Assembly: GCA_963793245.1 (NCBI GenBank)
Contig: CAWBZG010000005.1
Span: 843,993 to 907,992 of the forward strand
DNA: 64,000 nt
Reading direction: 5' to 3'
Origin: Rhodothermales bacterium
Lineage (GTDB): Bacteria; Bacteroidota; Rhodothermia; Rhodothermales; BA12
This document shows positions 12,084 to 31,738 of this stretch, in pieces. Position 1 is the stretch's first letter; the number at the start of each line of letters is the position of its first letter. The notes below the pieces were generated by a model that did no database searches, had not been told where the DNA came from, and saw only the letters and a list, made by a program, of their open reading frames with translations. Position numbers and translations under genes: made by a program.

Positions 12084-14505
12084 ATGCGTCGATTAAGAAG
12101 GAGGCCGATGGAACCGATAGCGAAAGCGACTCCCCTACATCCCACCTCCATGTTCGACGCTTCTCGCGCCCTGTCCATCCGCGCCCGACTTTACGCTGGG
12201 TTCGGCGTGATGCTGATCCTCTTGATCGCTACAGGAGCGATGGCGCTCTACATCAGCCACACGTTTCGCGCCGAGCGCGCCTATGCACAAACGCACATCC
12301 TGGCGCCGCTCGAGCGGGTCAGCCACATGGCGACCGCGTTTCAGCAGATGCAGACCTACGCAGCACGAGCCGTTCAGGATGACGATCCCACGACCTTCGC
12401 GGCCAACGTCGACCGAGTGGGCGAACTCGGTGCTGAACTTGCCGAGCAGGAAGCGGCCTTCCGCTCCGCTCTCTCCGATGGCGAACTGGTTGCCGTCTAC
12501 GACGAGTGGACAGACGTACGAAAGGCATACGAACGCGAAATCGAGTCCGTCGGCGATCTGGCGATGACAGGTGATACGGAAGCTGTCCGGCTGGCGGTGT
12601 CTACGACCGTCTACGACTCGGCGCAGGAGGTGATGGCGGGGATCGCGAATCTGCGCGAGCAGGTGCTGGCCTATGGAGCAAACGCGACCGCACAGAACGA
12701 TCAGCGCCAAACAGGACTTCGGTGGATGCTGGCGCTACTCGTCGGCGTGTCCGTCTTGATCGGGATCGCATTGGCGGCCCTTGTCTCGCGGCGTGTCGCT
12801 GATGGGTTGTCGGACCTCGGCGCCAAGTCGGATCGGCTCGTCGCGGGTGATCACACGGCTGAGTTCGATACGCAGCGGCAAGACGAGATCGGCGCGCTCG
12901 GTCGCACGCTCCAGCGGATGGGCGGTCGGCTCGTCAAGCGGCAGGTCGCTATCGAAGCGATTCTCAACGTGTCGAAGGCCGTCAATCAGGAGCGCGATCT
13001 AGACAAAGGGCTGTATCTGGCGCTCGAAGCCGCGCGCACGATCGCAAGTTCGCGATTTGCTGCGCTCGCCCTGACCGATGCACGTGCGTCTCAGCCGTTC
13101 GTGCAAGTAGGACTGGGCGATGCGTCCAGCCGAAAGACGGCGGACCAGGCGATCTACTCGCTGCTAGAAGCGCATCCCAACGCCGACGCCCCTGAACTCG
13201 GCACGATCCGTCCGCTTCTGGCGCTTCCCGTTCGCGTCAACGACCATCAGGTCGGCACGCTCTATCTCGGGCAGCGGCACGTCGGCGATGGTGCCTTCTC
13301 GCAGGACGACCGCGACATCGTTTCGGCTCTCGCCGCCGTCCTCGCGGTCACGGTCGACAGCTATCAGGCGGCTGCGGCGCGGCGTTCGGTTCGGAAGCAG
13401 TTGGAGCAGAGCGTCGGCGTGATTCTCGATGCGATGAGCGAGTTCGCTGACGGCAACCTGTCGGTCCATCTGGACGAAGCGTCCGTCGCTGGCTCGTCGA
13501 TGACCGAACTGCCGCGCTTATACGCCGGGTTCAACCGCACCGTCGCCCACGTCGGGGCAGCGATCAAGGAAGTCAGTAATTCCGTCGACGCACTGGCTGC
13601 GGCGTCGGTCGAAATGAGCGCGACGGTCGAGCAGATCGCCTCCAGCACGGACCAGCAATCGCACCAGGCGCAAGACGTGACGCACGCGATGGGCGAGATG
13701 GTCGACACGATCAACGCCAACGCGTCGGTGTCGATGCAAGCGGCGGAAGCGGCAGCGTCCAACGGTCAGTTTGCTCAGGACGGCGGCGCGATTGTGCACC
13801 AGACCGTCGAAAAAGTGCGCGAGGTGGCGCGCGTGTCGACCGAGACGGCGCAAGACCGTCGCCCGCTTGGGCGCGTCGAGCCGGGAGATCGGCACCATCG
13901 CCGCGACGATTGCCGAGATCGCCGAGCAGACCAACTTGCTCGCGCTCAACGCCACGATCGAGGCCGCCCGAGCCGGGGAGAGCGGACGCGGATTCGCCGT
14001 CGTCGCCGACGAAGTGCGCAAACTCGCCGTCCGCACAGCCGACGCCACGCGCACCATCGAGCAGACCATCGCGACGATTCAGACCGATACCGAAACGGCA
14101 GTCGGCGCCATCGAGCGGAGCCGATCCGAAGTCGAACTGGGCGTCTCGCTTGCCGAACGAGCAGGCCAAGCGCTCGAACGCATCGTCGAGGGTACCCACG
14201 CCGCGCGCGACCGCATGATGCAGATCGCAGCGGCGACCGAGGAGCAAAGCGTCACGTCGGCGATGGTCGCCCAGAGCATCGACGCGATCACGGCGGCGAC
14301 GTCCGAAGCGGCGCACGGCACGCAGGATGTCGCCCACGCCACCAACGAACTCAGCCGATTGGCGGTATCGCTGCAAGGGACCGTCCACCGCTTCCGCTTC
14401 GACGCGCCTCCTGCCGCTTCGGGCGATGGATACGCAGCGGATCGCGGAGCCATCGCGCCCTCGGCCAGCGTGTCGCCGGTTCATGCGGGCGTTGTGCCGA
14501 GTTGA
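12084..14505 (+). pseudogene. Methyl-accepting chemotaxis protein (4HB sensor - HAMP - GAF - HAMP - MA domain), one frame break near 13853; true start may be 12150
   Basis: TM MLILLIATGAMALYISH, then a second TM plus HAMP. A GAF-like block is followed by ..VSTETAQ | [58 protein letters not shown] (the highly conserved MCP signalling hairpin) in a second frame (ORF 13771-14505). Confidence 0.85.
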
Positions 14506-14539
14506 CGGATGGGCTTTGGCTCCCTGCCAGGTCTCCCGG

Positions 14540-16636
14540 TCAACCCAACTTATCGCCTGACTCCAGCCGCTCGCGCTGCTCTTTGCGCTCGGCCATTTCC
14601 GCGCGCTCCTGTGCCACGACGGGCGGGTCGTCCGCATGAAGCGTGGCGGGTTCTGCCGACGGCGCTTCGCCAACGCCCGGCGGCGGTGTGCCCATGCGCG
14701 GCTCTCCCAATGCTTCGAAGTCGTTCGGGTCCAGCGTGGGCAGTTCGACGCCCGAGTCGACGAAGGCGATGAGTAGGTCGCCGGGGAACGCTTTGGTGTC
14801 GTCCAGTCCTTCGGCGACGACGCGCACCTTGCCCGCGCTGGGAACGACGAAGAGTGGAATGGAGCGCTTACCGAACTGCTTGGTGAACGCCTGGGCGTCG
14901 AACGCCTCGGTCAGCCGCACGACTTCGAGCGAGGCGCCCTTTTCGAGTCGCTCCTCGATGGAGCGATACGTCGTGTGCGCGCCGAAGAGCGGACGCCCGC
15001 GCAGGTGCGTCGCAAGCTCGCCCTCGGAGTCTGCCGCCGAGTCCTGCCGAGCCGACAGTTGGTAGACATCGTTGGTGCCGAACGCTTCGGCGAAGTTGAG
15101 TGCGGCCAGACTGTTGACCTCGTCGTTGGGCGTCAGCGCAAGCAGCCTGCCGATGCCGCCCAGATCGAGTTCGTCGAAGATCGTTTCGCTGAGCACGTTG
15201 GCCTGAATCGCGTCGAGTTTGGCGCGGTGCGCGTTTCGGACGTGCATCGGGTTCGCGTCGATCAGCAGCACTTTGACACCCTGCTCTTTGAGCGCCCTGC
15301 CGATGCGCCACGCCCACGCATGCGCGCCGACGATCAGCACGCCCTGTGGATCCGGGTGCGCCAGTCCCAGCCAGCGCGCCAGCGGCGAGATCGTCAGTCC
15401 ATAGACGAGAACCGTCCCGACGATGACCAGAAAGATGATCGGCACGATGATATCGCCCTGCCCCGGCAGGATCTCGTTGACGCGAATCGAGAAGATGCTC
15501 GCGACGGCAGCGGCGACGATTCCGCGCGGAGCCAGCCACGCCAGAAACGCCTTCTCGCGCCAGTCGATGCGCGTCCCGATCGTCGACAGGTAGACGGCGA
15601 GCGGACGGATCGCCAGCATCATGACGGCCAGAAACGCGAGGCTTCCGGGCGTCACGTAGTCCAGCGCGGACTTGTCGAGCCGGGCGCTCAGAATGATGAA
15701 CAAGACCGAGATCAGCAGCACGCGCAGGTCCTCTTTGAACTCAACGATGCGGCGGATCGGCGCGTAGTTCTGGTTCGCCATGAAGATGCCCATCAGCGTC
15801 GTCGCCAGCAGGCCGCTCTCGTGTTGCAGCATCTCGGTCAGCGCAAAAACGGCGACGACCACCATCAGCGCGACGGAGTTTTGCAGGTAGTCGGGCAGCA
15901 GTCGCCGACGCAGCAGCATCACCAGCAGCGCCGCGCCCGCCAGCGCCCCGCCGATGCCGATAAACAGTTCTTTGACGATGCCCTCGAACGTGTGGAAGAC
16001 CAGCGCGCCCAGGCCTTGTACGCCCGGCTCGTTGATGAGCAGAATCGTTTCGAGCACCAGGACCGCCAGAATCGCCCCGACCGGATCGACGACGATTCCC
16101 TCCCACTTGGCAATCGTCCCGACGCGCCCCGTCGGACGCACGTGGCGCAGCAGCGGGATGATGACCGTCGGCCCCGTGACGGTCAGGATGCCGCCGATGA
16201 TCGCCGCGATGCTCACGCTCACGCCCAGCAGCCAGTAGGCCGCCAGCCCGGTCAGCACGCCCGTCACGGCAACGCCAATCGTGATCAGGTTGCGCACCAC
16301 GTTGCCCACGCCTTCCAACTCGCGCAGCCGGAGCGTTAGCCCGCCCTCGAACAGGATGATGCCGACGGCCAGCGACACAAAAGCGAACAGCCCGTCACCT
16401 TGCAACAAGGCTGGGTCGAGCATCCCCGTCACCGGCCCGGCGAGAAACCCGAACGCCAGCAGCAGCAGGATCGACGGCAGCCGGAAGCGCCACGCGAGCC
16501 ACTGCGCACCCACGCCGAGTACGAATACGGCGCCGGCGGCGAGGAGGAGAGTTTCGGTCAAAGCGAGTCGGAAAGGTGAGCCGAAAGGTACGGACACGCC
16601 AGTTTTCGACACTTCGCGCCTGTACCCATCGGACAT
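14540..16636 (-). CDS. Cation:proton antiporter (CPA1-type) with C-terminal RCK/TrkA-N domain
   Basis: ~12 TM N-terminal half (..LPSILLLLAFGFLAGP..), then GVLIVGAHAWAWRIGRALKEQGVKVLLID (Rossmann GxGxxG-like). Start taken at M49 (MSDGYRR..). Confidence 0.85.
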   Translation of the reverse strand: MSDGYRREVSKTGVSVPFGSPFRLALTETLLLAAGAVFVLGVGAQWLAWRFRLPSILLLLAFGFLAGPVTGMLDPALLQGDGLFAFVSLAVGIILFEGGLTLRLRELEGVGNVVRNLITIGVAVTGVLTGLAAYWLLGVSVSIAAIIGGILTVTGPTVIIPLLRHVRPTGRVGTIAKWEGIVVDPVGAILAVLVLETILLINEPGVQGLGALVFHTFEGIVKELFIGIGGALAGAALLVMLLRRRLLPDYLQNSVALMVVVAVFALTEMLQHESGLLATTLMGIFMANQNYAPIRRIVEFKEDLRVLLISVLFIILSARLDKSALDYVTPGSLAFLAVMMLAIRPLAVYLSTIGTRIDWREKAFLAWLAPRGIVAAAVASIFSIRVNEILPGQGDIIVPIIFLVIVGTVLVYGLTISPLARWLGLAHPDPQGVLIVGAHAWAWRIGRALKEQGVKVLLIDANPMHVRNAHRAKLDAIQANVLSETIFDELDLGGIGRLLALTPNDEVNSLAALNFAEAFGTNDVYQLSARQDSAADSEGELATHLRGRPLFGAHTTYRSIEERLEKGASLEVVRLTEAFDAQAFTKQFGKRSIPLFVVPSAGKVRVVAEGLDDTKAFPGDLLIAFVDSGVELPTLDPNDFEALGEPRMGTPPPGVGEAPSAEPATLHADDPPVVAQERAEMAERKEQRERLESGDKLG

Positions 16637-18838: not shown

Positions 18839-18939
18839 CGCCGTAGCACGCTACGGCGACTCTCAGACCACGCAAGCCTGCAGCCAATCGCAAAAGACGA
18901 CGGGATGTATCCCGTCGCTACGGGCACGATCAGAACGCA

Positions 18940-21400
18940 TCAGTTGCCGATAGGCGAGCCGGGCGGCGGCGTTAGCGAGCGTGGCAACTCGGCGTCCGGT
19001 GCGTAGTCGCGGGCGAGGTAGCGCGTGATGCGGTCTCGAGAGCCAGCGGGCGTGATCGTCGCCGGTCGATAGGTCGGTGGCGAGTTGGGCGAGGTGCGCG
19101 TCGGTTGTAGCACGGACCGTCGATGCCGCGCGCGTATTCGAGGACAACTCCATCAGCGCGCGCGTCCACTCGGTCCAGACGGATTGGCGCACGTTGGCGT
19201 GATAAGCGTCGTCGGTTTGGGCGCCACTTCCAATCGTGGTGGTCGTCCGGTCGAGGAGACCCGAGAACGAAAGGAGTGACGCGTCGAGAGCGGGCTGATA
19301 GGCGAGGCGCGTCGCACGGGTGGCGTCGAGCAGATAGCCGAACGTCAGTGCGGCGCCGGTCTCGGCGGGGGCGACGGGGTCGAACGTCAGTCCCGTCCGC
19401 CCGTCGAACAGCTCGCGCGTGCCCCAGTAGCCGGGCGGACGCGGCGGAATCAGGCCGCGCAAGCTGGCGGGCAGCGCGAGGGCTTCGGGAGTGACCGTGG
19501 CGAGAAGTGCGGCGAGGGCGTCATTTTGGGATCGGGCGTCGACCGGAGCCATCCGCTGCGAACCGTCGCTGCGTTCGACGTAACCGTACGAGACACCACC
19601 CACCAAGTGCGCGGCGGCGTCGACCTGATAGCGATGACCGAGGTAGAGCGGCACGAGCGCTTCTTCCAGCGTGGCGAGCGGACGCCCCTGACGGATCGCG
19701 GATTCTCCGAAGCGGTCGAGCGCCATTGCGGCGGATCGCCATCTGATCGCGCAAGGCTTGGGCCGCGTCCGTGCCGTTGTCCCACAGCGCGCCGACGGGC
19801 GTTGCGGCTCCGGTCGGGCGTGCGTCGGTGTCGGACAGGTAGCGCAGACCGCGCTCGCGATTCTCGCGCAGCACGGTTTGCATCGTCCCCGCATCGTGCG
19901 CGTAGCCGTAGCGGATCGCCTGCACGTCCCACTCGCCGACGCCGACGCCGTACGCATCGGACAGATCAATTTCCCCATCCGCCAGCGTGACGAGGGGCGC
20001 CGGATAGTCCATTACAGTCGAGCGGTCTTGCGTGCTTCCGGCAAAGTTGTGCGCCAGCCCAATCGTGTGGCCGACCTCGTGCGCCGACAGTTGCCGCAGA
20101 CGCGCCAACGCCAGTTGCAGCATCGGGTCGTCCGCCTCGCTGCCAAAGCCGTCCGCGTTCGCACCGACGTAGGGCGACAGCAGCCCCTCGGCGATCAGAT
20201 AATCCTGCCGCACACGCAGCGATCCAAGTGACACGTGGCCCTTGAGAATCTCGCCCGTCCGCGGATCGACGACCGAACTGCCGTAGCTCCAGCCGCGCGT
20301 CGAGCGGTGGACCCACTGAATCGTGCTGTACCGAACGTCGAGCGGGTCGACGCTAGTCGGGGCGCACTTCGACGCGGTAGCCGTCGCGGAAACCGGCAGC
20401 CTCGAACGCATCGGCCCACCAGCGCGCGCCGTCGAGCAGGGCCGAGCGGACCGGCTCGGGCGTGCCGGGGTCGAGGTAGTAGACGATGGGATCGGCTGCG
20501 TCGCACAGGCCGGACGCGTCGGGCGGAGCGGCGCACTCTAACCGGTGACGCGTGATCAGGCGCTGTGTCAGGTCCTCGCCGATGGGAGCGGCATAATCGG
20601 CGTAGCTCATCGCGAAATAGCCCGACGCGGGGTGGAAGGCGCGCGGCGTGTAGCCGTCGTCGGGCAACGCGACGAGCGAGTGGCGGACGCGCACCGTCAC
20701 CGCTTCGGCATCGGCGGCGACGCTGCGCACTTCGCTTCCGGGCGACGACGAGGCGAACGTCAGGCGCGCTTCCATCTCGGAGTTTTCAGGAAACGCTTTG
20801 AGCATCGTCGGCACCAGAGCGCTGCGTTTGGCGTCGAGCGAGAAGGTGCCCTGCCCGGTTCCTCTGAGCGTTTGCGCCACGCCTTGGGCATCGCGCACCA
20901 CGAACGGCGTCGCGTCGACGAGCACGCGCCCGCCCGTTTCCGCCACGACATCGAAGGCCCATACAACGCTCGACGCAAACGCATCGGCGACGGCCAATCG
21001 CTCAGCCGGATTGTCGCTCTCGGCGCGGTAGTCGAGGTTGGGCTGCACCATCAGAATGCGCGGGCCGACACGCTCGAACCGGACGACGCGCGTGCCGGTC
21101 AGCTTTGAGCGGTCCAGTCCCACATCGTTCGACCCCAGTCCGGCGGCCAGACTCGTCACGTAGAGCAGAGTCGGCGTCCAGCTCGGCGATCTCCATCCAC
21201 ACCTTGCCCTCTTTGGCGTCCCACCAGAGCGGCCACATCCCGTCGCGCCGATCCATGCCGTCGGTCTTCTTGGCAATCGTCGGCAAACCAGACGATGAAG
21301 CCGAGGCGGACGCAGACGAGGGCGGCGAAGCGGGCGGCGCCGTCGACGAGCAGCCGAGGGCGAACAGGACGAGGGCGGCGAGGGGGAGCAGGCGAGGCAT
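18940..21400 (-). pseudogene. Secreted zinc-dependent metalloprotease (DUF5117/DUF4953-type, HEVGHTIGL), about 4 frame breaks
   Basis: Five frame segments join: MPRLLPLAALVLFALGCSS..WWDAKEGKVWMEIAELDA | ..LLYVTSLAAGLGSNDVGLDR..MVQPNLDYRAESDNP..RVEV | ..[45 protein letters not shown] | MALDRFGESAIRQGRPLATLEEALVPLYLGHRY.. | ..RDRITRYLARDYAPDAELPRSLTPPPGSPIGN*. Breaks are near 21170, 20360 (G4 run), 19740 and 19050. Confidence 0.8.
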
Positions 21401-21485
21401 CGGCGGAGCGGTTGGGACGCCGCTAAAATAGACGACTTGGCGCGGAGCACCGATGTGCGCCCTGAAACCAAGTGCCCTGCGGTCG

Positions 21486-21610
21486 AAAGCGTCGGCGAAA
21501 GCTCCGAAAGTGCCAGCGTAGGTACCAAAAGCGTCGGTGTATGGCCCAGATGTGCCAGCGTAGGCACCAAAAGCGTTGGTGTAAGCCTCGGAACCGTCGA
21601 TGTAAGCCTG
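21486..21610. repeat. Tandem repeat, about 3 units of 41-42 bp, upstream of the protease start
   Basis: Units begin at 21486, 21527 and 21569. Consensus is AAAAGCGTYGGTGTA....GTGCCAGCGTAGGYACC. It translates on the minus strand as YTNAFGAYAG / YTDAFGTYAG but lies upstream of the signal peptide. Confidence 0.7.
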
Positions 21611-21727
21611 CACCGGGAGGTTCGCGTGCTCCGCAGCGAGAACAGGGCACGCGGCGACGCCTCGGTCTGCTTCGAGGTTGGGCGCGCTACCCTTGGAGAG
21701 TGGTAGGCGCCTACGCTTGGCCGGATG

Positions 21728-24213
21728 CTACTCCGCCCCTTCCAGCGGCAGCCACACGCGCAGCGTCGATCCTACCCCTTGCTCCGACTGCACGTCGAGC
21801 CGGGCGCCCAGCATATCGGTCAGGCGCCGAACGATGGACAGGCCCAGCCCGCTTCCCTCAAACGTGCGCGACATGCCGTCCGACTCCTGGCGAAACGGCT
21901 CGAACGCTGCCTCTACGAACGACGGCGCCATACCGATGCCCGTGTCGGCGACCTCGATCCACCCATACTCCTCGCTCGCGCCCACACGCACGTCGACCCG
22001 TCCGCGACTCGTAAACTTGACGGCGTTGGAGACCAGGTGCCCCACGAGTCGGTCTACGGCGTCACGGTTCGTCGTCAGCCAGAGAGGGTGCGAGGGAGCC
22101 GCGACGGTGAGGCTGAGGTGTTTGGCGCGGGCGCGCGATGCGTAGGGATGAACGGCATCGCGGACGATGCGCACCACGTCTACGCGGTCGGCCTCGAACG
22201 GAATCCCGCTTTCGAGTTGAGCGAAGTAGAGGACCGAGTTGAGCGTGTCGAGCAGCCGCTGCGCGCTCGTCTGAATGATGCTGACCGTTTCGGGATCGGG
22301 ATCGTCGGGGTCGTCGGCAAGCAGGTCGGCGAAGCCCAGGATTGCTGTGAGCGGCGTGCGGATCTCGTGGCTCATGTTGCTGATGATGCCCGTCTTGAGC
22401 CGCGCGGCTTCCTCGGCACGCTCTTTGGCTTCGAGTGCGGCGGCGCGCGCTTCCTCGAGTGCTTGCGCGTGCCGCTTCTCATCCGTCACGTCCTGCGACA
22501 CGCCTGCCATGCGCGTCGGGCGACGACCTTCAGCGTGGATGCGACCCAGCGTGCGCACCCATCGCTCCTCGCCCGCCACCACGACGCGGTACTCGACCGA
22601 TACGTCAGCGACACCCGATACAGCAGCGCGCAGCATGGCAGATTTGAATGGCTTCGTCACCGACGCACGATCCTCGCGCACCACTTGGCGAAGCGCCGTA
22701 ACAGCACGCCCGTCGAAGCTGACAACGCCGTGGATGGCGCACGTCTGCGAGGACCAGTTGCCGAGATCGGCCCCGAAGTCGTAGTCCCACACGCCGATGT
22801 GCGCCGACTCGACGGCCATCTGCAGATACTGCTCGCTCGCTACCAATCGGCGTTCGGCGGCTTGGCGTTCCGTCGCATCTACGATCGAGAAGGAGCACAG
22901 CGGCACACCCGCATCGGTATACCCGACGAGGTTGACGGACACCTCCAGATAGGCGTCCCCAGAAAGCATCGACTGGCGGTAGGCAAAGTAAACCGGCTCT
23001 TTGGTTCGAATCGCGGTCCGATACGCGTCGAACCACTGAGCAAGAGCGCCCAATTCCGGACCGATCTCCCGCACACTCCCATCCGGCATCGGTACACCCG
23101 AGCGCCCGAAAAACGTTCGGGTGGCGGCATTGGCGATGACGAACACTATGTCGTCAGGGTGGACCTCGACCACGCCCATCATGCCCGGCACGGTGTCGAA
23201 GAAACTCTGGAGGATCGCCGTCTGCCGCTCGAAGTCGCTCCTCGCCCGGCGCGCCTCGTCTATGTCGACGCACGTGCCGACGAACTCAACGAACTGCTCG
23301 CTCCTCAAAGACCGGAACGACCTGCGCTCGCGTCCACCGATAGGCGTCGTCGCTTTTGCTGCGGTACTCCGTCGTGTACGGACGGCGCGCCTGGATCGCT
23401 TCGCGCCAGCCCTCGGTCACCCGGAGTGCGTCATCCGGGTGCAGGGATTCGACCCACCCCCATCCTTTGGCTCTTTCCGAAGAGAACGACTCGCTAAGCG
23501 GATGGACACGGCGCAACTCGGTCACATCGCCTCCTGCATCGGCTACGAACGTGACCTGCGACGTCGTCTCGACCAACGCGCGGAAGCGGCGCTCGCTGGC
23601 GCGCAGATTGAGTTCGGTCGTGATGAGATCGCTCAGTTCCTCCAGCGCGACGCGGTCGTCGTCGGACCACTCGTGCGGCTCGAGTGTCGATGGCGCAGAG
23701 CGAGCCGATGACGACCCCGTCCGACGCGCGCACCGGGACGCCGAGATAGGCGACGCACGCCCATATCGACAGACTGCCCGGTTGTGTCGCAGAACGGCGT
23801 GCTCGAGAACGTCCGGCACATTTAGGAGGCCGCTCGTCACCACAACGTACTGACAAAGCGATGCATCGAGGCCCGACCTCTCGTACGTGACTCAGATCGT
23901 TCGGAAATCCGTGGGTGCTCTTGAAAAAACTCCGGTTGTGATCGAGGAGCGAGAACAGCGACACGGGTGCGCCGATTATACGCGCCGCGAGCCGAGTAAA
24001 CCGATCGAATGTCTCCTCCTCGCAAGAATCGAGCAGGCCGGTGCGATACAGGGCAGCGAGACGAGCAGGGTCGTCCAGCGCGTGGGGAGAGGAGGAAGGA
24101 CATGCGTACAGAGACGAGAAGCCCGAAGAGTATCGGCAGGCCCGAAAGAAAGGTAACCGGCTGTTTTCCCTCGGTCCAATCGGCGCATACGGATTCACGA
24201 GATGCATTCGCAC
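21728..24213 (-). pseudogene. GAF-PAS-PAS sensor histidine kinase, about 4 frame breaks
   Basis: GAF: ALDDPARLAALYRTGLLDS..FDRFTRLAA..REVGP | DASLCQYVVVTSGLLNVPDVLEHAVLRHN | PGSLSIWACVAYLGVPVRASDGVVIGSLCAIDTR | PHEWSDDDRVALEELS..PAS.. | ..SHEIRTPLTAILGFADLL (HisKA) ..DTGIGM..GSGLGLSIV (HATPase). Breaks are near 23858, 23765, 23680 and 23300. Confidence 0.8.
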
Positions 24214-24330: not shown

Positions 24331-26536
24331 ATGCCGCCTGAAGATCTGCCTTCGTGGATGCACGACGTGATCGCGCAGACAGAGGGCGATAGCCGGAGGG
24401 TACTGCTCGAATCCGTCCTCGGCTTTACGGTTACGGGCTTCGGCGGCGAGGAAACCGAGGATGCGCGCCCGGCGAACGCCATCGCGCGCGGCCACGTGGT
24501 ATGGCGCAGGCGAGCCGGTCGTCGTGGCGGGGCGAACGCTGCGCCGCGTCTACGTCGCCGACGATCTGCCGCAACGCTCCTATCGTGACGAGCACAAGAG
24601 CCTGATCGTCCGCTCGCTCGACGTGGCCGACTCGGGCGGCGAGCGCCCATCGTTTCTCAACTTCTGGTCTGGCTACCGCGACGCAGGCACTCGGCAGCGC
24701 GGGGCCTATCTCGACTGGCTCGCGGGCGGCGCCCAGACTCCCGTCGACAGCTACTACGCGCTGCTCTACTTCTACGGACTCGAACGCCGCTTCTTCCGCG
24801 ACACCCCGAGCGGCGAAGAGCGCGCCGATCTGATCGCCGAAGTCCGGCGGCTGCGGGGCGTCATGGGGACCGACCATTCGTTTCGCTACCGATCCGACGC
24901 GTTTCTGGCGGCTGCCGCCGCGTTTTCACCGGAACGGCATTACCTGACCGAGCCGGACATCGAACTGCGAAGCCAGCCAAGTCATGGGCTGCTGATCGCA
25001 CTCGGCCAGGCAGCGCTCGACAAAGCGCCCCTCTCGGCAGATTGGATGCTGGCGTGGCTGTACCAGGACGAACGCGTGCACAAGTCTGCGGCGGCGCGGC
25101 GCTGCCTCGACGAGGTCCGCGTGCTGTTCGGCCAGCGCTACCGCGCGCAGTTCGGCGATGGAATCGTCGTCAAGCCCGGAAAAGAGCACCTCTCGACGCT
25201 CTACCACGCCGCCTCGGGCGACTTCACCAAGGTGGCGTCGGACCACGGCGTGCCTGACGTAAGCCGCTCGCGCAAACCACTGAGCGACGCGCTGCCGCTG
25301 TTCGACAAGAGCGTCGCCGAGTTGGACGCCTACAGCCGCTGGCTCGCTCGCAACCCCGCAGATCGCGACTCGGCCCAGGCGCTGGCGCTGCTCCCGCTCG
25401 ACCTCTCGCGCCAGCGGCTGGCCGATTCGTTCGACCCGTTCCTCAAATGGGTGCGCGATGCCGTCGACAGTGAGGCATTTGCCCAAGTCGACGCCGTCGA
25501 TTTGGGGACGCAGTGGCTGGGATCGTCGGGCACGCTCAACAAGTCGGGCGCACTTCCCAAGCGGCAGGCTGAACTGCTAAGCGAACTGCTCGGACGGATG
25601 GACATCGGCATCGAACCCGACGTGCGACGAGGCGGAAAGGCAGTCAAAAAAGGCCAACACGCTGTCCTGTTTCGCGCGACGGATGCCGACCTACATCGAC
25701 CGTCGACGGCGTTTCGGTCGCCGAGGTTGCGCTCGTCCTGATGGCTGCTGCGGCCCACGCCGACGGTGTCGCGTCGGACGCTCAGTGCGCGCACGTCCGC
25801 GCGTTCGCCCAATCGCACGACGTACCGGCGTACGAAACCGAGCGGCTGTCGGCCCGCGCCGTCTTCCTGCTGCGCCATCCGCCCGCTCTGCGCGACGTAC
25901 GATCTGCCGCCAAGAGCCTTGCCGATTCTGACACGGCAGGAGTTGTCGCACCACGCGCTACTGACGGCCAGTCTCGATGGGACGCTGACGCCCGACGCGA
26001 GCCGTACGATCAGCAAACTGTACGAAGCGCTCAGCCTGCCCACCTCGGCGCTCTACTCCGACCTGCATGCGATGCAAACGGGCGTCGACGCGCCTACCCT
26101 CGTCCGTCCAGGCGGCAACGCATCGCTCGGGTTCGCCCTCCCCCAGCGTCCGAGCGACGCGCCCGCGCCGACGTTCACGCTCGACCTCGACGCCGTCCGC
26201 GCCAAACTCGCCGACACACACCGAGCCTCGGCTCTCCTCGCAGACGTCTTCGCCGACGAAGAGGAGACCGAAGCCGCCTCGCCTATCGCAGAGCCGGACG
26301 CCCTGCCCGGCCTCGACGCTCCCCACTCGGCGCTGACGTTGGTGCTGGTCGAACAAGCCGAGTGGTCGCGCGACACCTTTGAAGCACTGGCCAGCGAACG
26401 CGGACTGATGTCCGGTGGCGCACTCGAAGCGATCAACGAGTGGGCGTTCGATGCGTTGGGCGACGCGCTGATCGAAGACGACGATCCGCTAACGGTGGAC
26501 CTCGACGCGTGGCGCGCGTACCAGTCGGCTGCCTGA
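24331..26536 (+). pseudogene. sngA: TerB_N - TerB - TerB_C protein (Shango SngA-like); frame interrupted near 25700 and 25915, and possibly near 24480 if the 24331 start is real
   Basis: TerB_N: ATWYGAGEPVVVAGRTLRRVYV..YLDWLAGGAQTPVDSYYALLYFYGLERRFF (frame 2, 24461-25741). TerB-like: VAEVALVLMAAAAHADGVASDAQCAHVRAF (frame 1). TerB_C: LDLDAVRAKLADTHRASALLADVFADEE..GLDAPHSALTLVLVEQAEWSRDTFEALASERGLMSGGALEAINEWAFD (frame 2, to 26536). Confidence 0.7.
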
Positions 26537-26560
26537 CCCATTTCCACCGACCTCCTACCG

Positions 26561-27889
26561 ATGCAGCCCGACGACCGCCCCAAGATCCGCCCTCGCGAAC
26601 GAAACGCGCTCGTCCAGGCGCTCCGCGCAGGCGTCGTGCCGCGCAGTGGGTTGCAGCACATCCAGGTGGGCCGCAGCAAAGAACTCGACGCCCTGCTGCG
26701 CAACATCGACCACGTCTCCGACGGCGGATCGGCGGTGCGGTTCGTGATCGGCGAGTACGGCTCGGGCAAGACGTTTTTCCTCAACCTGATCCGATTGGTC
26801 GCCCTGGAGCGCGGCCTGGTCACCCTCAGCGCCGACCTCACACCGGACAAGCGGTTGCAAGCCGCAGGCGGGCAGGCGCGGGCACTCTACGCCGAGTTGA
26901 TGCGCAACCTCGCCACGCGCACCAAACCGGACGGCGGAGCGCTGCCGTCGATCGTAGAGCGGTTCGTATCGCAGGCAGCAAGTCAGGCGCAGAGCGAGGA
27001 CCGTGACGTCGAAGAGGTGATCCGCGAGCGGCTGACGTCGCTCGAAGAGTTGGTGTCGGGCTACGACTTCGCTTCGGTGATCGCGCACTACTGGCGGGCA
27101 CATCAGGACGGCGACGCGGGCGGTAAGGCCGACGCGCTGCGGTGGCTACGGGCCGAATATCCCAACCGCTCGTCGGCCAAAAAGGACTTGGGCGTCTCGG
27201 CGATTATCGACGATCAGTCGTGGTACGACTACCTCAAGCTGATGGCGCGCTTCGTGCGGCTGGCGGGCTACGGCGGAGTGGTCGTCGTGCTCGACGAGGT
27301 CGTCAACCTGTACAAGATGCAGCACAAGACGGCACGGAGCCGCAACTACGAGCAGGTGCTCCGCATCGTCAACGACAGCTTGCAGGGTGTATCGGAAGGC
27401 GTGCTGATGCTCTTCGGCGGCACACCCGAGTTCCTGATGGACCCATATCGCGGACTCTACTCGTACGAAGCCCTCCAAACACGCCTGGCCGAAAACACAT
27501 TCGCCCGCGACGGCCTAGTCGACCTCTCCGGCCCGGTCATGCGCCTGCAAAACCTGTCGCCCGAGGACCTGTATGTGCTGCTCGCCAACATCCGCCGCGT
27601 GTTCGCCGAGGGCGACGACAGCAAGCACCTCATCCCCGACGACGCGCTGCAAGCGTTCATGCGCCACTGCTCCGAGCGCATCGGCGACGCCTACTTCCGC
27701 ACGCCGCGCACGACCGTCCGCGCCTTCACCGATCTGCTCGCCGTGCTAGAGCAAAACCCCGACGCCGACTGGCACTCCCTCCTCGGCTCCGTCGCCCTGG
27801 CACCCGAGTCCAACCCTGACCTGGAGCCGCTGGCCGCCGGTGATGACGCGGAGGACGATGCCGATGGCCTGTCGTCGTTCACGATGTGA
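26561..27889 (+). CDS. sngB: DUF2791/BrxD-like P-loop ATPase (Shango SngB-like)
   Basis: 442 aa. N-terminus ..RERNALVQALRAGVVPRSGLQHIQVGRSKELDALLRNIDHV..GGSAVRFVIGEYGSGKTFFLNL (Walker A), then GGVVVVLDEVVNLY (Walker B). Confidence 0.8.
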   Translation: MQPDDRPKIRPRERNALVQALRAGVVPRSGLQHIQVGRSKELDALLRNIDHVSDGGSAVRFVIGEYGSGKTFFLNLIRLVALERGLVTLSADLTPDKRLQAAGGQARALYAELMRNLATRTKPDGGALPSIVERFVSQAASQAQSEDRDVEEVIRERLTSLEELVSGYDFASVIAHYWRAHQDGDAGGKADALRWLRAEYPNRSSAKKDLGVSAIIDDQSWYDYLKLMARFVRLAGYGGVVVVLDEVVNLYKMQHKTARSRNYEQVLRIVNDSLQGVSEGVLMLFGGTPEFLMDPYRGLYSYEALQTRLAENTFARDGLVDLSGPVMRLQNLSPEDLYVLLANIRRVFAEGDDSKHLIPDDALQAFMRHCSERIGDAYFRTPRTTVRAFTDLLAVLEQNPDADWHSLLGSVALAPESNPDLEPLAAGDDAEDDADGLSSFTM

Positions 27890-27922
27890 TGGAGAGGTTG
27901 TGAGCGTTGAGTCAGCAAGGGA

Positions 27923-28317
27923 GATTGCCACGTCCCCCGATCAAGCCGAGGGCAGGCTGCTTCGCTCCTCGCAATGACAAAGTGGAGAGAGGTGGAGACT
28001 TTGCGCCAACACTCCGAGCCGACGTGTTTAGAATCGGCCTTAGACGATCCGGCGATCAGATGCAGAGTGGAGCGAGCGTCCGAAGAGCCGTTCGTGTCTG
28101 AGCGCAGCGTCTCGACGCGTAGCGAGTTGAACGGGTTCAGCGAACGCAGCGCCGCATCAGCCGGATCGACGTAAGCCTTGATCTTTTGGTTCTTTTGTAT
28201 CAAGACAAAAGGGCCGGACAACACAACCGGCACACTCACGGATCACAACTCATCACGATCTAGCCTGGCAAGTAGTTGTGGATCCCTGCCTTCGCAGGGA
28301 CGACGGTTGGAGAGAGG
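27923..28317 (+). repeat. Modular intergenic repeat, locus A (modules M1 27923-27978, M2 28031-28211, M3 28279-28317), between sngB and sngC
   Basis: M1 is GATTGCCACG..CTCGCAATGAC. M2 is ..GAATCGGCCT..TGAGCGCAGCG..AGCGAGTT..CGACGTAAGCCTTGATCTTTTGGTTCTTTTGTATCAAGACAAAAG. M3 is GGATCCCTGCCTTCGCAGGGACGACGGTTGGAGAGAGG. Copies occur at loci B-E. Confidence 0.8.
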
Positions 28318-28363
28318 CAAACCATGCGGCGCGTTATATACCGGCGTCGCCAAGACTTCTACT

Positions 28364-30547
28364 ATGCCCACAGCCTCCTCCGCCTTCGAGAGCCTCCACC
28401 CGTCGGTCCAAAAGTGGGTGTATCGCCAAAACTGGACGCACCTCCGCGATCTCCAGGAGCAAGCCATCGCCCCGATCCAGGCAGCCGAGCGCGACGTGAT
28501 CCTGGCAGCCGCCACCGCGAGCGGAAAGACCGAAGCCGCCTTCTTACCCATCCTCTCGCGCCTCGCCGAACGCAAGCCCCAACCCGGCTTCGGCGTGCTC
28601 TGCGTCAGCCCGCTCAAAGCGCTGATCAACGACCAGTACGACCGGCTCGGACTGATGGGCGAAGCGACGGGCATCCCCATCCACCGCTGGCACGGCGACG
28701 TGGCGCAGAACCGAAAGACGACCGCACTGCGCAACCCAAGCGGCGTCCTGCTGATCACGCCCGAGTCGCTCGAAGCCCTGTTCGTGCGGCGCGGACTCGA
28801 AGTGCCGGGCCTGTTCGCTGGCCTCGCCTACGTCGTCGTCGACGAGTTGCACGCGTTCATGGGCGACGAGCGCGGGCGACAACTCCAGAGCCTGCTGCAC
28901 CGCGTCGACCTGGCGATTCGGCGCAGCTGTCCCCGCATCGCGCTCTCGGCCACGCTGGGCGACATGCGGCAAGCCGCCGAATACCTGCGTCCGGGCGATG
29001 GCGAGCGTGCCGTCATCATCGAAGGCAGCGGCGACACCTCCGAACTGCGGATGCAACTGCGCGGCTACGTCGAAGAGGCGCCGGACGACGACACCAACCA
29101 GCCGTCCGCTGTCGAAGCCATCGCCGATCACCTCTACCAACACCTGCGCGGACACGACAACCTCGCGTTCGCCAACAGCCGCGCGTTCGTCGAACTGCTC
29201 TCGGATCGCCTGCGCCTCAGGTGCGAAGCCGACAAAGTCCCCATCGAGTTCTTTCCGCACCACGGCAACCTGTCGCGCGAACTAAGGGAGAGCGTCGAGG
29301 CCGCGCTGGGATCGAACCGCCCGACGACCGCCGTCTGCACGTCGACGCTCGAACTGGGCATCGACGTGGGATCCGTCCACTCAATTGCGCAGATCGGCCC
29401 GCCGCCATCCGTCGCCAGTTTGCGCCAACGCTTGGGGCGATCCGGTCGGCGAGCAGGTGAGGCGGCGATCCTGCGGATGTACGTTACCGAGCCTCCGACG
29501 ACGGGCGACGACCGAGCCGACGTAGCGCTCCGCCTCAAACTCGTCCAGTCGATTGCGATGGTCGACTTGCTGCTCGACCGCTGGTACGAGCCGCCCGGCG
29601 AGCAGGCGCTCCACCTGTCGACGCTCGTGCAGCAGGTACTCTCGATGATCGCCCAGCACGGCGGCGCTCGGGCCAATCAGCTATTCTCCGTGCTGTGCGC
29701 CCACGGCCCCTTTCGACGCGTCACGCCTGCGCTGTTCGGCGACTTGCTGCGCTGTTTGGGAAAAGGCGACGTGCTCCACCAGTCGAGCGACGGGACGCTG
29801 ATGTTGGGTCCAGTCGGCGAGCGGCTGACGGGTCACTACTCGTTCTACGCTGCGTTTGCGACTCAGGACGAATACCGACTGGTCTGCGGCGGATCGTCGC
29901 TCGGAACGCTGCCAGTCACCTACGCCGTCATGCCCGGCATGCATTTGGTGTTCGCGGGCAAGCGGTGGAAAGTCCTCGCAGTCGAGCAGAGCGAAAAGCG
30001 CATCACGGTCGAAGCCGGACCTGCAGGAACGGCGCCCTCATTCGGAACGAGCGTCGGCGGCCTGCACACACGCGTCGTCCAGCAGATGAAGGGCGTCTAC
30101 GAGCGCGACGACGCACCCGGCTACCTCGACGCCCGAGCTAACACGCTGCTCTCCCAGGGTCGCCGCCAATACGCTGCGCTGAAGCTGGCCGACCGCGCCC
30201 TCGTCCCAGCAGGCGAAGACACGCTGCTCTTCCCCTGGCTAGGCAGCCGCGCTCTCGACGCACTCGCCTTGGCGCTTGCCCATTCAGGAGTCGCCCCTGA
30301 GCGCTACCCGATCCACCTGTCCGTTCCCACGTCCGCCGCCGATCTCAAAGCGCGCCTCCGCTTGCTCGCCCGCCGCGATCCGTCCGACCCTGCCGTTCTC
30401 GCCGACCTCGCCCAAAACAAAGCGACCGAAAAGCACCATCGCCTCCTCTCCGACGACCTCCTCAGCGCCGACTACGCCTCGTCCCACCTCGACGTAGCCG
30501 AAGCGTGGGAGTGGCTGCGCGCGTGGGCGCGGACGAAGGCGGTATAG
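28364..30547 (+). CDS. sngC: Lhr/BrxHI-like DEAD/DEAH-box SF2 helicase (Shango SngC-like)
   Basis: MPTASSAFESLHPSVQKWVYRQNWTHLRDLQEQAI..AATASGKTEAAFLPIL (motif I), VVVDELHAF (II), SATLG (III), TSTLELGIDVG (V), QRLGRSGRR (VI), plus a ~300-aa C-terminal extension. Start set at M63 because the first 62 codons translate the repeat. Confidence 0.8.
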   Translation: MPTASSAFESLHPSVQKWVYRQNWTHLRDLQEQAIAPIQAAERDVILAAATASGKTEAAFLPILSRLAERKPQPGFGVLCVSPLKALINDQYDRLGLMGEATGIPIHRWHGDVAQNRKTTALRNPSGVLLITPESLEALFVRRGLEVPGLFAGLAYVVVDELHAFMGDERGRQLQSLLHRVDLAIRRSCPRIALSATLGDMRQAAEYLRPGDGERAVIIEGSGDTSELRMQLRGYVEEAPDDDTNQPSAVEAIADHLYQHLRGHDNLAFANSRAFVELLSDRLRLRCEADKVPIEFFPHHGNLSRELRESVEAALGSNRPTTAVCTSTLELGIDVGSVHSIAQIGPPPSVASLRQRLGRSGRRAGEAAILRMYVTEPPTTGDDRADVALRLKLVQSIAMVDLLLDRWYEPPGEQALHLSTLVQQVLSMIAQHGGARANQLFSVLCAHGPFRRVTPALFGDLLRCLGKGDVLHQSSDGTLMLGPVGERLTGHYSFYAAFATQDEYRLVCGGSSLGTLPVTYAVMPGMHLVFAGKRWKVLAVEQSEKRITVEAGPAGTAPSFGTSVGGLHTRVVQQMKGVYERDDAPGYLDARANTLLSQGRRQYAALKLADRALVPAGEDTLLFPWLGSRALDALALALAHSGVAPERYPIHLSVPTSAADLKARLRLLARRDPSDPAVLADLAQNKATEKHHRLLSDDLLSADYASSHLDVAEAWEWLRAWARTKAV

Positions 30548-30578: not shown

Positions 30579-30877
30579 AGCGGCCTGATCTCGGTCCGGC
30601 GAAAAAGACGCGGAGAGAGCGAGCGTCAAGAAAAGCTGCTGTTTGAGCGAACGCAGAGAGCGAGTTTGCAGGTTTCCAGCGAGTGATCGCAGTGTCAGCC
30701 GGAGCGAGTCCAGCCTTGATCTTTTGCTTCCTTTTGCATCAAGGCAAAAGAAGGCCCCGCGCAGCGGACATGAAGCACCATCCTTTAACCCGTATCAAGC
30801 CGGAGAGCAGCGTCATTGTACTATCCGACTTCGGTAGTCAACTCAGATTGACACGTCGCTTCGCTCCTCGCAATGAC
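30579..30877 (+). repeat. Modular intergenic repeat, locus B (M2 30579-30750, M1 variant 30846-30877), immediately downstream of sngC
   Basis: ..GGTCCGGCGAAAAAGACGCGGAG..TGTTTGAGCGAACGCAG..AGCGAGTTTGCAGG..AGCCTTGATCTTTTGCTTCCTTTTGCATCAAGGCAAAAG, followed by GATTGACACGTCGCTTCGCTCCTCGCAATGAC. Confidence 0.8.
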
Positions 30878-30913
30878 GAAGTGAGTGGTTGTAGCCGGAC
30901 CTGGAATACCTCG

Positions 30914-31651
30914 CTATGCTTCCTCCACGCGCGGCTTCTTCCCCGGCCACACGCACAAGTCGTACACCGGGCACCGCTCGCACGCCGGATTGCGCCAGTA
31001 GCAGCAGCGTTGGCCATGCAGCATCAGCGCCTCGTGGTGGTCATAGACGGTCTGCGCATCCCAATCGCGCGGCAGCAGTTCGGCGAGCAGATCGTGCGAC
31101 GGACCGACCGCGACCTTTTCGCCGATCAAGCCCAGCCGTTGCGCCACGCGATGGTGGTGGCTGTCGACCGGTAGGGCGGCGATGCGCAGGTTGCTGAACA
31201 GCAAGACGGCGGCGCTCGTTTTAGGGCCGATGCCTTTGATCCGTTCGAGCCATTTGCGCGCGCGGGCGGCAGGCCAATCGGCCAGGGCGTCGAGCGAGAG
31301 GCCATCGGTTTCGGGGGCGTCGCGGATGGCGGTCAGCACCTGCTGGATGCGCGGCGCTTTCTGCTCGGGCCACGTGGCGGCGGAGATGGCAGTCTCTATC
31401 TCTGCGATCGGCGCGTCGATCACATCGTCCCACGTCGGAAAGCGTGCACGGAGCGATGTGTAGGCGCGTCCGCTGTCGGCGTTTTTGGTGCGGTGGGAGA
31501 GTAAGGCCGACACGAGTTCGCTCAGCGGGTCCTTGTCCGAGAAATAGGCGATGGGGCAACCGTACGCCTCGCACAGCCGCTCGTGAACGTCGAGCGCTCG
31601 GCGCCGCAGCGCATCGGGATCGGCAAGAGCAGAGTCGAACAGATTGGACAT
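30914..31651 (-). CDS. Endonuclease III family (HhH-GPD) DNA glycosylase with FeS cluster loop
   Basis: ..LSHRTKNADS..IKGIGPKTSAAVLLFS..PVDSHHHRVAQRLGLI..CCYWRNPACERCPVYDLC. Confidence 0.8.
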   Translation of the reverse strand: MSNLFDSALADPDALRRRALDVHERLCEAYGCPIAYFSDKDPLSELVSALLSHRTKNADSGRAYTSLRARFPTWDDVIDAPIAEIETAISAATWPEQKAPRIQQVLTAIRDAPETDGLSLDALADWPAARARKWLERIKGIGPKTSAAVLLFSNLRIAALPVDSHHHRVAQRLGLIGEKVAVGPSHDLLAELLPRDWDAQTVYDHHEALMLHGQRCCYWRNPACERCPVYDLCVWPGKKPRVEEA

Positions 31652-31738
31652 GCCCCTACCACGCAGGCGCGACGAACGCTGTTCAGCGGGCGCCACATCG
31701 GTACGGATGCGTCGATTTCGTACCGTGGAGAGCGCAGG

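What the first reader, a model, noticed from the sequence alone, without database searches (positions are those of the whole stretch)
24331..30547. Shango-like TerB / DUF2791-ATPase / Lhr-type helicase defence cassette
Three co-directional genes form the only clearly accessory, conflict-type locus in the window. (i) One protein carries TerB_N hallmarks (ATWYGAGEPVVVAGRTL, YLDWLAGGAQTPVDSYYALLYFYGLERRFF), a central TerB-like segment (VAEVALVLMAAAAHADGVASD) and a TerB_C tail (GLDAPHS..WSRDTFEALASERGLMSGGALEAINEWAFD). (ii) A P-loop ATPase has the DUF2791/BrxD layout (LRAGVVPRSG..VGR, GEYGSGKT, VVVVLDEV). (iii) An SF2 helicase has motifs I-VI (ASGKTEAA, VVDELH, SATLG, QRLGRSGR) and a long Lhr/BrxHI-like C-terminal extension. 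From memory, this triad was flagged in comparative work on Ter systems as a membrane-linked DNA-processing module. It was later named Shango (SngA/B/C) in the 2022 anti-phage screens, and no mechanism has been established. The ATPase and helicase also resemble BrxD and BrxHI of type 2 BREX, which suggests a shared effector module. If the three TerB-type domains are really fused in one ~730-aa polypeptide here, that architecture should be compared with the canonical SngA.
Basis: partly seen in the sequence, partly recalled or inferred. Interest (0 to 1): 0.85.

Follow-up and report, generated by a model that had tools for sequence, protein, structure and literature searches.

The report
Shango defence cassette with broken sngA
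This is an ordinary three-gene Shango anti-phage cassette (a TerB-type protein, a BrxD-like ATPase and an Lhr-like helicase) whose first gene is interrupted, as sequenced, by two one-base frame errors that are probably assembly artefacts.

Summary
The window carries sngA (24461-26536), sngB (26561-27889) and sngC (28364-30547), co-directional and in the canonical order. PADLOC models score SngB 1.8e-174 and SngC 2.4e-265. SngA matches in two pieces (1e-28 and 1e-33). The A-B-C order recurs in nearly all of 160 related loci.

Three corrections:
- sngA starts at 24461, not 24331.
- A ~700-aa TerB_N-TerB-TerB_C protein is the norm among relatives (136 of 139 loci, median 702 aa), not an unusual fusion.
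- sngA is not one open frame here. A -1 shift near 25715 and a +1 shift near 25930 put the first half of the TerB domain in another frame, and a TGA at 25739 truncates the product to 426 aa.

At least four other genes in the window, including class II ribonucleotide reductase, carry the same kind of one-base lesion. I therefore judge assembly error more likely than real decay.

The 474-nt sngB-sngC spacer is real and unusual (median gap in relatives is -5 nt). It consists of dispersed REP-like repeats. The nearest relative also has a long spacer, and sngB and sngC are under strong purifying selection (dN/dS 0.04 and 0.10).

The Shango mechanism remains unknown. This is a new member of a known kind, of low interest.

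The parts
24461..25716 (+). sngA 5' part. It covers TerB_N (aa 17-210) plus the helical middle region. As sequenced, this frame runs on to the TGA at 25739-25741, giving a 426-aa ORF.
   Evidence: Pfam TerB_N 6.9e-33. PADLOC SngA 1.1e-28. Family HMM positions 7-430 match in this frame.
25712..25720 (+). First frame break in sngA, equivalent to a 1-nt deletion just after the TTT codon for the conserved aromatic residue.
   Evidence: Family HMM position 430 is reached in frame 2 at nt ~25720 and resumes in frame 1 at nt 25717. Sequence read. There is no long homopolymer.
25739..25741 (+). Premature TGA that ends the sngA 5' ORF. It overlaps an ATG (TGATG) in the frame of the middle segment.
25717..25932 (+). 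sngA middle segment, the first half of the TerB domain (VAEVALVLMAAAAHADG...), encoded in a different frame from the rest of the gene.
   Evidence: Family HMM positions 430-503 match only in this frame (E 3e-9). After conceptual frame correction, Pfam TerB aligns at aa 424-530 at 18.4 bits, below the gathering score of 24.4.
25922..25935 (+). Second frame break in sngA, equivalent to a 1-nt insertion, which returns to the original frame.
   Evidence: HMM 499-503 overlap between the two frames. Sequence. The frame-corrected 691-aa product matches the family HMM end to end at 596 bits.
25934..26536 (+). sngA 3' part. It covers the second half of TerB, an acidic linker and TerB_C, with stop TGA at 26534-26536.
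   Evidence: Pfam TerB_C 3.6e-25. PADLOC SngA 1e-33. HMM 499-699.
26561..27889 (+). sngB, a 442-aa P-loop ATPase of the BrxC/BrxD family, with Walker A GEYGSGKT (K70) and Walker B VVVVLDEV (D245 E246). The ORF is intact.
   Evidence: PADLOC SngB 1.8e-174, full length. Pfam PF10923 2.2e-153. dN/dS 0.04 against L002.
27890..28363 (+). 474-nt sngB-sngC spacer with no coding potential, built from dispersed REP-like repeats: R1 ~27923-27984, R2 ~28136-28215 (strong hairpin) and the R3 hairpin 28280-28306.
   Evidence: Repeat copies occur elsewhere in the window. Labelled non-coding by the codon-usage Viterbi scan. No Rfam match. The gap is an outlier among 149 loci.
28364..30547 (+). sngC, a 727-aa Lhr-like SF2 helicase with motifs I (K55), II (DELH 160-163), III (SAT) and VI (QRLGRSGR), plus winged-helix and C-terminal domains. 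The ORF is intact.
   Evidence: PADLOC SngC 2.4e-265, full length. PDB Lhr core 5v9x 5.5e-37. AF2 model pLDDT 88.7. Foldseek 5v9x TM-score 0.72. dN/dS 0.10.
30643..30883 (+). Second copies of repeats R2 (30643-30760) and R1 (30789-30883) just downstream of sngC, in the same orientation as the spacer copies.

Best explanation
This locus is a canonical three-gene Shango anti-phage system (sngA-sngB-sngC). It sits alone between housekeeping genes in the chromosome of a high-GC bacterium related to marine Rhodothermales.

What is shown. SngA is the standard ~700-aa TerB_N / helical middle / TerB / acidic linker / TerB_C protein with no convincing transmembrane helix. SngB is a BrxD-like P-loop ATPase. 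SngC is a four-domain Lhr-core-like DExH helicase. sngB and sngC are intact and under strong purifying selection.

What is inferred about mechanism. SngA acts as the sensor or scaffold, possibly peripherally at the membrane or through its metal- or ligand-binding TerB module. The SngB ATPase licenses or loads SngC. By analogy with Lhr, SngC translocates 3'-to-5' on single-stranded phage DNA and dismantles replication or recombination intermediates. In about a quarter of relatives a DEDD 3'-5' exonuclease is fused to or follows SngC. This suggests the unwound 3' strand is the thing attacked. This locus has no such nuclease, so it would rely on displacement alone or on host nucleases.

The two one-base frame breaks in sngA are most likely assembly indel errors, so the organism probably has an intact system. 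The 474-nt spacer is a lineage-specific build-up of REP-like repeats. It uncouples sngC from sngB translation but has not relaxed selection on either gene.
For: Identity: the PADLOC SngA, SngB and SngC hits are best by a wide margin, with matching Pfam domains. A-B-C synteny holds in 151 of 160 related loci, and the rest lack sngC downstream; most of those nine are short or truncated contigs. Published anti-phage activity exists for E. coli and P. aeruginosa Shango.

Helicase type: the best matches are Lhr core and MrfA, by sequence and by fold. All SF2 motif residues that are invariant in 48 homologues are present.

Selection: dN/dS is 0.04 for sngB and 0.10 for sngC against L002, at dS ~0.5.

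Exonuclease association: 36 of 160 loci carry it.

Artefact reading of the frameshifts: the frame-corrected SngA matches the family HMM end to end with no other lesion. Class II RNR, an MCP, a Met-zincin and a GAF-PAS histidine kinase in the same window are also split between frames with contiguous profile coordinates. No nonsense lesion was seen in any of them.

Spacer: its repeats recur in other intergenic regions, and the nearest relative, L002, has a 389-nt spacer at the same place.
Against: No step of the Shango mechanism has been shown experimentally anywhere, so the sensor-loader-motor scheme rests on domain analogy. The frame breaks are not in long homopolymers. Three of the five broken genes lie next to each other (18.9-26.5 kb), which could also reflect a real decaying region. 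No close relative with sngA was found for comparison. The TerB domain is below Pfam's threshold even after frame correction (18.4 against 24.4 bits). No promoter for sngC could be identified, although that scan does not cover Bacteroidota-type promoters.
Confidence: 0.85

Rival explanations
1. The frame breaks are real. sngA is a recent pseudogene and the cassette is an inactivated or decaying Shango remnant within a small region of gene decay (18.9-26.5 kb).
For: As sequenced, the sngA product stops at 426 aa. The neighbouring Met-zincin and GAF-PAS kinase genes are also broken. The breaks are not at long homopolymers. 3 of 139 related loci also have a split sngA, so natural disruption does occur.
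Against: An RNR gene 23 kb away and an MCP gene 11 kb away carry the same kind of lesion. All lesions are single-base indels with no nonsense codons or deletions. The sequence on both sides of each break is still a good family match. sngB and sngC show no relaxation of selection.
Confidence: 0.22
2. The split is real and functional. The lineage runs Shango with a two-piece SngA: a TerB_N protein, translationally coupled through the TGATG overlap at 25739-25743 to a TerB/TerB_C piece. This would need a further +1 recoding event near 25930.
For: There is a TGATG stop-start overlap exactly after the first break. The two shifts are compensating, so the last 200 aa are back in the original frame.
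Against: The ORF starting at 25741 runs out of the homologous frame after ~64 codons. There is no slippery sequence at 25922-25935. 136 of 139 relatives have a single ORF.
Confidence: 0.04
3. The ATPase and helicase are the BrxD and BrxHI genes of a type 2 BREX system, not Shango.
For: BrxD and BrxHI models do match, at 1.5e-50 and 2.7e-125.
Against: The SngB and SngC models score 3.4 and 2.1 times higher. NCBIfam BREX_BrxD scores 168 bits against a 350-bit cut-off. No PglX, PglZ or other BREX hit appears in any large ORF of the window. A TerB_N/TerB_C gene sits immediately upstream, as in Shango.
Confidence: 0.01
4. The cassette is a housekeeping stress-response or DNA-repair module (Ter-type, Lhr-like repair helicase), not a phage defence system.
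For: Lhr and MrfA are repair helicases. The locus is not in a defence island. Its GC content matches the surroundings.
Against: Homologous cassettes protect E. coli and P. aeruginosa from phages. The flanks are not conserved with the nearest full-length relative, which suggests an accessory, mobile cassette. The Lhr equivalog cut-offs are missed by a wide margin.
Confidence: 0.05

Closest known systems
Shango (SngABC) of E. coli (Millman et al. 2022) and P. aeruginosa PA14 (Johnson et al. 2023)
   Same: It has the same three components in the same order: a TerB-type protein, a BrxD-like ATPase and a DEAD/DEAH helicase. The SngB and SngC models match over their full length, and the SngA model matches over the N- and C-terminal parts.
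   Different: The host lineage is different (Rhodothermales-like). SngA is about 690 aa against a 528-position PADLOC profile, though that length is the norm in this clade. sngA is frame-broken as sequenced. A 474-nt repeat-filled spacer replaces the usual sngB-sngC overlap. The locus is not in a defence hotspot.
BrxD / BrxHI of type 2 BREX (Pgl)
   Same: The ATPase belongs to the same Pfam family (PF10923), and the helicase belongs to the same SF2 clade and is alignable over its full length.
   Different: There is no PglX methyltransferase, PglZ phosphatase or other BREX gene. The scores are well below the Shango models and below the NCBIfam BrxD cut-off.
Lhr-core (M. smegmatis, PDB 5v9x) and MrfA/YprA (PDB 6znp) repair helicases
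   Same: The four-domain architecture is shared (RecA1, RecA2, winged helix, C-terminal domain), with TM-scores of 0.72 and 0.62 and a DExH motor.
   Different: Identity is only 16-22% in the structural alignments. No DEAD_assoc Pfam domain is detected. The Lhr-family NCBIfam cut-offs are missed. The operon context is with SngA and SngB, not with repair genes.
Other TerB-containing defence systems (Bunzi BnzA, Dionysus DinB)
   Same: They include a TerB-type module in an anti-phage operon.
   Different: Those systems pair TerB with transmembrane or pore-forming partners. Here TerB sits between TerB_N and TerB_C, and the partners are an ATPase and a helicase. No clear transmembrane helix is present.

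Membership tests
Shango (SngABC) | SngA-type protein (TerB_N ... TerB_C) detected by the family model | tested here: met
   PADLOC SngA scores 1.1e-28 (N part) and 1e-33 (C part). Pfam gives TerB_N 6.9e-33 and TerB_C 3.6e-25.
Shango (SngABC) | sngA present as one intact reading frame | tested here: not met
   There are two frame breaks (~25715 and ~25930) and a TGA at 25739. I judge them probably artefactual, but this is unproven.
Shango (SngABC) | SngB ATPase with intact Walker A and B motifs | tested here: met
   PADLOC SngB scores 1.8e-174 over 4-427 of 439 profile positions. GEYGSGKT and VVVVLDEV are present.
Shango (SngABC) | SngC SF2 helicase with motifs I-VI | tested here: met
   PADLOC SngC scores 2.4e-265 over 3-718 of 720 profile positions. 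The invariant motif residues are present.
Shango (SngABC) | Three genes adjacent and co-directional in the order A-B-C | tested here: met
   The window coordinates show it. The same order occurs in related loci. The B-C distance of 474 nt is atypical.
Shango (SngABC) | Confers protection against phage | not testable with these tools
   This is known only for the E. coli and P. aeruginosa homologues.
BREX type 2 | BrxD equivalog score at or above the curated cut-off | tested here: not met
   NF033438 scores 168.2 bits against a 350-bit cut-off.
BREX type 2 | PglX methyltransferase and PglZ phosphatase in the locus | tested here: not met
   No BREX hits appear among the large ORFs of the window. 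The neighbours are a histidine kinase, a Met-zincin, an EndoIII-like gene and the Mla operon.
Lhr helicase family | Four-domain Lhr-core fold | tested here: met
   The Foldseek top hit is 5v9x_A, E 2.3e-27, TM-score 0.72, on an AF2 model with pLDDT 88.7.
Lhr helicase family | Equivalog-level sequence membership (NCBIfam Lhr / ligase-associated DEXH helicase; Pfam DEAD_assoc) | tested here: not met
   TIGR04121 scores 225 bits against 850, and PRK09751 scores 110 against 1496. No DEAD_assoc hit at E <= 0.01.
TerB domain (PF05099) | Score at or above Pfam's gathering threshold | tested here: not met
   The domain is seen only after conceptual frame correction, at 18.4 bits against 24.4 (E 0.0027, aa 424-530). 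Homologues P0002 and P0007 pass, at 46.9 and 32.1 bits.

The most novel reading that the evidence does not exclude
Both sngA frame breaks are genuine, and this Rhodothermales lineage has remodelled Shango. SngA would be made as separate pieces, or dispensed with. sngC would be transcriptionally and translationally uncoupled from sngAB by a REP-repeat spacer and bracketed by direct repeats that could let it be lost or exchanged as a module. That would make this a natural dissection of which Shango parts are needed together.
Probability: 0.07. Interest if true: 0.45.

Novelty: new member of a known kind. Interest (0 to 1): 0.2.

Why it matters
The finding mainly serves as a correct annotation. 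It extends a catalogued but mechanistically unsolved defence system to a marine Rhodothermales-like genome, and it warns that the public gene call (a 426-aa 'SngA') is a truncation.

Two side results may help people working on Shango. First, the sngB-sngC overlap, otherwise almost universal, can be replaced by about 0.4-0.5 kb of repeats without loss of purifying selection. Second, roughly a quarter of related cassettes add a DEDD 3'-5' exonuclease to SngC, which points to a 3'-ended nucleic acid as the target. Neither result makes the mechanism more testable here than in the E. coli or P. aeruginosa systems already in hand.

Tried and rejected
- I looked for a close relative with an intact sngA to place the indels at nucleotide level. 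Exact-product look-ups failed. A metagenome scan with SngA found nothing. A scan with SngB gave at most 65% identity. The only close relative, L002, is a 3.4-kb contig without sngA.
- I rejected the 24331 start. That ORF has no family hit and no tblastn match in the 160 related loci, although it has some coding potential in its own frame.
- I rejected a structured RNA or riboswitch in the spacer. There is no Rfam hit at E <= 1, and the overall fold has z = -0.65.
- The sigma-70 promoter and terminator scan was uninformative.
- The whole-protein fold search of SngA gave only the TerB domain (2h5n, 2ou3) plus weak winged-helix matches for TerB_C at E ~3. That is too weak to claim DNA binding.
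- SngB has no solved relative by sequence.
- I rejected BREX membership.
- I rejected a defence-island context.
- The Anantharaman 2012 paper could not be read. Its content is cited only through Millman 2022 and Johnson 2023.


Full report
**What is there**

The window is about 65% GC throughout, and the locus does not stand out in composition. Between 24.4 and 30.5 kb the + strand carries three co-directional genes.

Pfam finds these domains:
- TerB_N in ORF 24461-25741 (6.9e-33)
- TerB_C in the ORF ending at 26536 (3.6e-25)
- BrxC_BrxD, PF10923 (the former DUF2791), over the whole of 26561-27889 (2.2e-153)
- DEAD plus Helicase_C in the first half of the last gene

PADLOC-DB gives SngA as the only hit for both TerB pieces (1.1e-28 and 1e-33). 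It gives SngB at 1.8e-174 (BrxD only 1.5e-50) and SngC at 2.4e-265 over 3-718 of 720 profile positions (BrxHI 2.7e-125). The helicase ATG is at 28364. This gives a 727-aa protein identical in length to the database entry for this genome and a spacer of exactly 474 nt.

**Relatives and synteny**

A scan of one genome per species found 448 loci encoding SngB relatives, and a metagenome scan found 467. I kept 160 loci. In these:
- sngC follows sngB in 151, and the other nine lack it; most of those are short or truncated contigs.
- The N- and C-terminal parts of SngA lie in one ORF in 136 of 139 loci, with median length 702 aa.
- The sngA-sngB gap has median -4 nt and the sngB-sngC gap median -5 nt (95th percentile 56 nt).

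Database homologues of SngA are typically 680-745 aa and carry TerB_N, TerB and TerB_C. The three-domain ~700-aa protein is therefore the norm, not a special fusion.

The nearest relatives are a marine Rhodothermales MAG contig (L002: SngB 96%, SngC 93% identical) and a Bacteroidota MAG (L001: 75% and 63%). The flanks of L001 share nothing with the window. Only about eight viral contigs carry an SngC-like gene.

In the window the neighbours are a GAF-PAS histidine kinase and a Met-zincin upstream, and an EndoIII-like gene and the Mla operon downstream. No notable defence-model hit was found among the large ORFs elsewhere in the window, and the wider flanks are housekeeping genes.

**The sngA reading frame**

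I built a profile from 30 full-length homologues and searched it against the three forward frames. It matches as follows:
- positions 7-430 in one frame (nt 24461-25720)
- positions 430-503 in a second frame (nt 25717-25935, 'VAEVALVLMAAAAHADG...', the first half of the TerB domain)
- positions 499-699 back in the first frame (nt 25922-26518)

The profile coordinates are contiguous. The lesions are therefore a one-base loss just after the TTT codon at 25712-25714 and a one-base gain within 25927-25933. Read as sequenced, the gene stops at the TGA at 25739-25741 after 426 codons, which is exactly the product recorded in the protein database for this genome (P0001).

A conceptual frame-corrected translation is 691 aa. 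It matches the family profile end to end as a single domain at 596 bits. Only then does Pfam TerB align (aa 424-530), and at 18.4 bits it stays below the 24.4-bit gathering score. Two homologues pass it.

It has no family hit and no tblastn match in the 160 related loci.

**Artefact or pseudogene?**

The same kind of lesion occurs in at least four other genes of the window:
- Class II ribonucleotide reductase is split at about 1398. Profile positions 1-50 are in one ORF and 50-494 in another, and the sequence is a perfect RNR match on both sides of a (GGC)3 run.
- A methyl-accepting chemotaxis protein has its signalling domain in another frame.
- A DUF5117/DUF4953 Met-zincin is in three frames.
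- The GAF, PAS and HisKA-HATPase parts of the upstream kinase are in three frames.

A self-trained codon-usage Viterbi scan shows the same frame switches, while most other genes look intact.

All these lesions are single-base indels. I saw no nonsense codons or deletions. A break in the ribonucleotide reductase gene, normally a core function, points to consensus indel errors in the assembly, and I put that at roughly three in four.

Three facts count against it. The breaks are not at long homopolymers. Three of the five broken genes are adjacent. No close relative with sngA could be found for comparison.

**The spacer**

The 474 nt between sngB and sngC have no coding potential, no Rfam match and no exceptional global fold. 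They are built from short repeats that recur in other intergenic regions of the window:
- R1 (about 27923-27984) recurs at 30789-30883 and 53127-53183.
- R2 (about 28136-28215, with a strong hairpin) recurs at 30643-30760, inverted at 47237-47268, and at 54316-54339.
- R3 is the hairpin GGATCCCTGCCTTCGCAGGGACGACGG at 28280-28306.

L002 has a 389-nt spacer at the same place with different sequence except for R3. In R3 the stem changes in a compensatory way.

Among 149 measurable loci only L002 and one other have a gap above 73 nt. Even so, sngB and sngC have evolved under strong purifying selection since the window and L002 diverged. For sngB, dN is 0.021 and dS 0.53. For sngC, dN is 0.043 and dS 0.44. 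The spacer is therefore compatible with function.

**What the proteins look like**

SngC's best solved relatives are M. smegmatis Lhr (5v9x, 7lhl) and B. subtilis MrfA/YprA. An AlphaFold2 model (pLDDT 88.7, pTM 0.87) superposes on ssDNA-bound Lhr core over its whole length (TM-score 0.72, E 2.3e-27). The 'long C-terminal extension' is therefore the Lhr-type winged-helix plus C-terminal domain. It is Lhr-like rather than an Lhr orthologue, because the NCBIfam cut-offs are missed by a wide margin and no DEAD_assoc domain is found.

SngB has no solved relative by sequence.

A model of an SngA homologue (pLDDT 84) matches only TerB-fold structures. The winged-helix-like hits for TerB_C are too weak to use. 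None of the three proteins has a convincing transmembrane segment.

**Mechanism**

The papers I could find establish only that Shango protects E. coli and P. aeruginosa from several phages, modestly on plates and more clearly in liquid culture. SngC groups with BrxHI, DruE and DpdJ in a defence-specific SF2 clade. As of September 2025, how TerB-domain defence proteins work was still described as unclear. Later searches found no mechanistic paper.

My proposed scheme is inference from domain homology:
- SngA senses or scaffolds.
- SngB licenses or loads.
- SngC translocates 3'-to-5' on phage single-stranded DNA.

One new piece of comparative support is that 36 of the 160 related loci have a DEDD RNase_T-type 3'-5' exonuclease fused to the C-terminus of SngC or encoded just after it. 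The window has none.

**Verdict**

The Shango interpretation is supported. The locus is a new member of a known kind. Its only unusual features are a probably artefactual double frameshift in sngA and a repeat-filled spacer shared in position with its nearest relative. Interest is low.

Noticed in passing
window 6-2217 (- strand), break near 1398: The class II (B12-dependent) ribonucleotide reductase gene is split between two frames at a (GGC)3 run. Profile positions 1-50 are in one ORF and 50-494 in the other, and the sequence is perfectly RNR-like on both sides.
   Followed up: partly
window 12084-14639 and 13771-14505 (+ strand): A methyl-accepting chemotaxis protein has its 4HB_MCP-HAMP-GAF part in one frame and its MCPsignal domain in another. 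This is a further single frameshift somewhere between ~13355 and 13855.
   Followed up: partly
window 18863-21570 (- strand): A DUF5117/DUF4953 Met-zincin metalloprotease gene is broken into three overlapping ORFs in different frames. DUF4953 profile positions 4-178 and 161-310 lie in separate ORFs.
   Followed up: partly
window 21731-24213 (- strand): In the sensor histidine kinase directly upstream of sngA, the GAF (23494-24213), PAS (23289-23843) and HisKA-HATPase (21731-23416) parts are in three different frames. The long + strand ORF 21725-23497 on the opposite strand is spurious.
   Followed up: partly
L017, L078, L009, L006 and 32 other related loci (e.g. L017:9779-10348): About a quarter of related Shango cassettes carry a DEDD RNase_T-family 3'-5' exonuclease fused to the C-terminus of SngC (proteins of 936-1145 aa) or encoded just downstream. 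It is absent from the window. I found no mention of this variant in the papers searched.
   Followed up: partly
window 27923-28306, 30643-30883, 47237-47268, 53066-53183, 54316-54444: There are at least three families of short REP/MITE-like intergenic repeats with hairpins. Their translations give the 'ASLLAMT' and 'WIPAFAG' peptides often seen in spurious ORFs. sngC is bracketed by direct copies of two of the families.
   Followed up: partly
window 24338-24490 (+ strand): A stretch with coding-like codon usage lies in the frame of the 85-aa ORF 24331-24588, just upstream of and overlapping the sngA start. It has no family hit and no counterpart in relatives. It could be a small gene, a third frame error in an N-terminal extension, or noise.
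   Followed up: partly
L160, L024, L079, L139: One unrelated locus (L160) also has a ~472-nt sngB-sngC gap. In three loci the SngA N- and C-terminal matches do not fall in one ORF (in L024 the best C-terminal match lies elsewhere in the locus). I did not examine these further.
   Followed up: no
window 30914-31696 (- strand): An EndoIII-like HhH-GPD glycosylase with an Fe-S motif lies convergent with sngC. It gives a weak PADLOC hit to a 'type II nicking endonuclease' model (4.2e-9), which is most likely generic family similarity.
   Followed up: no
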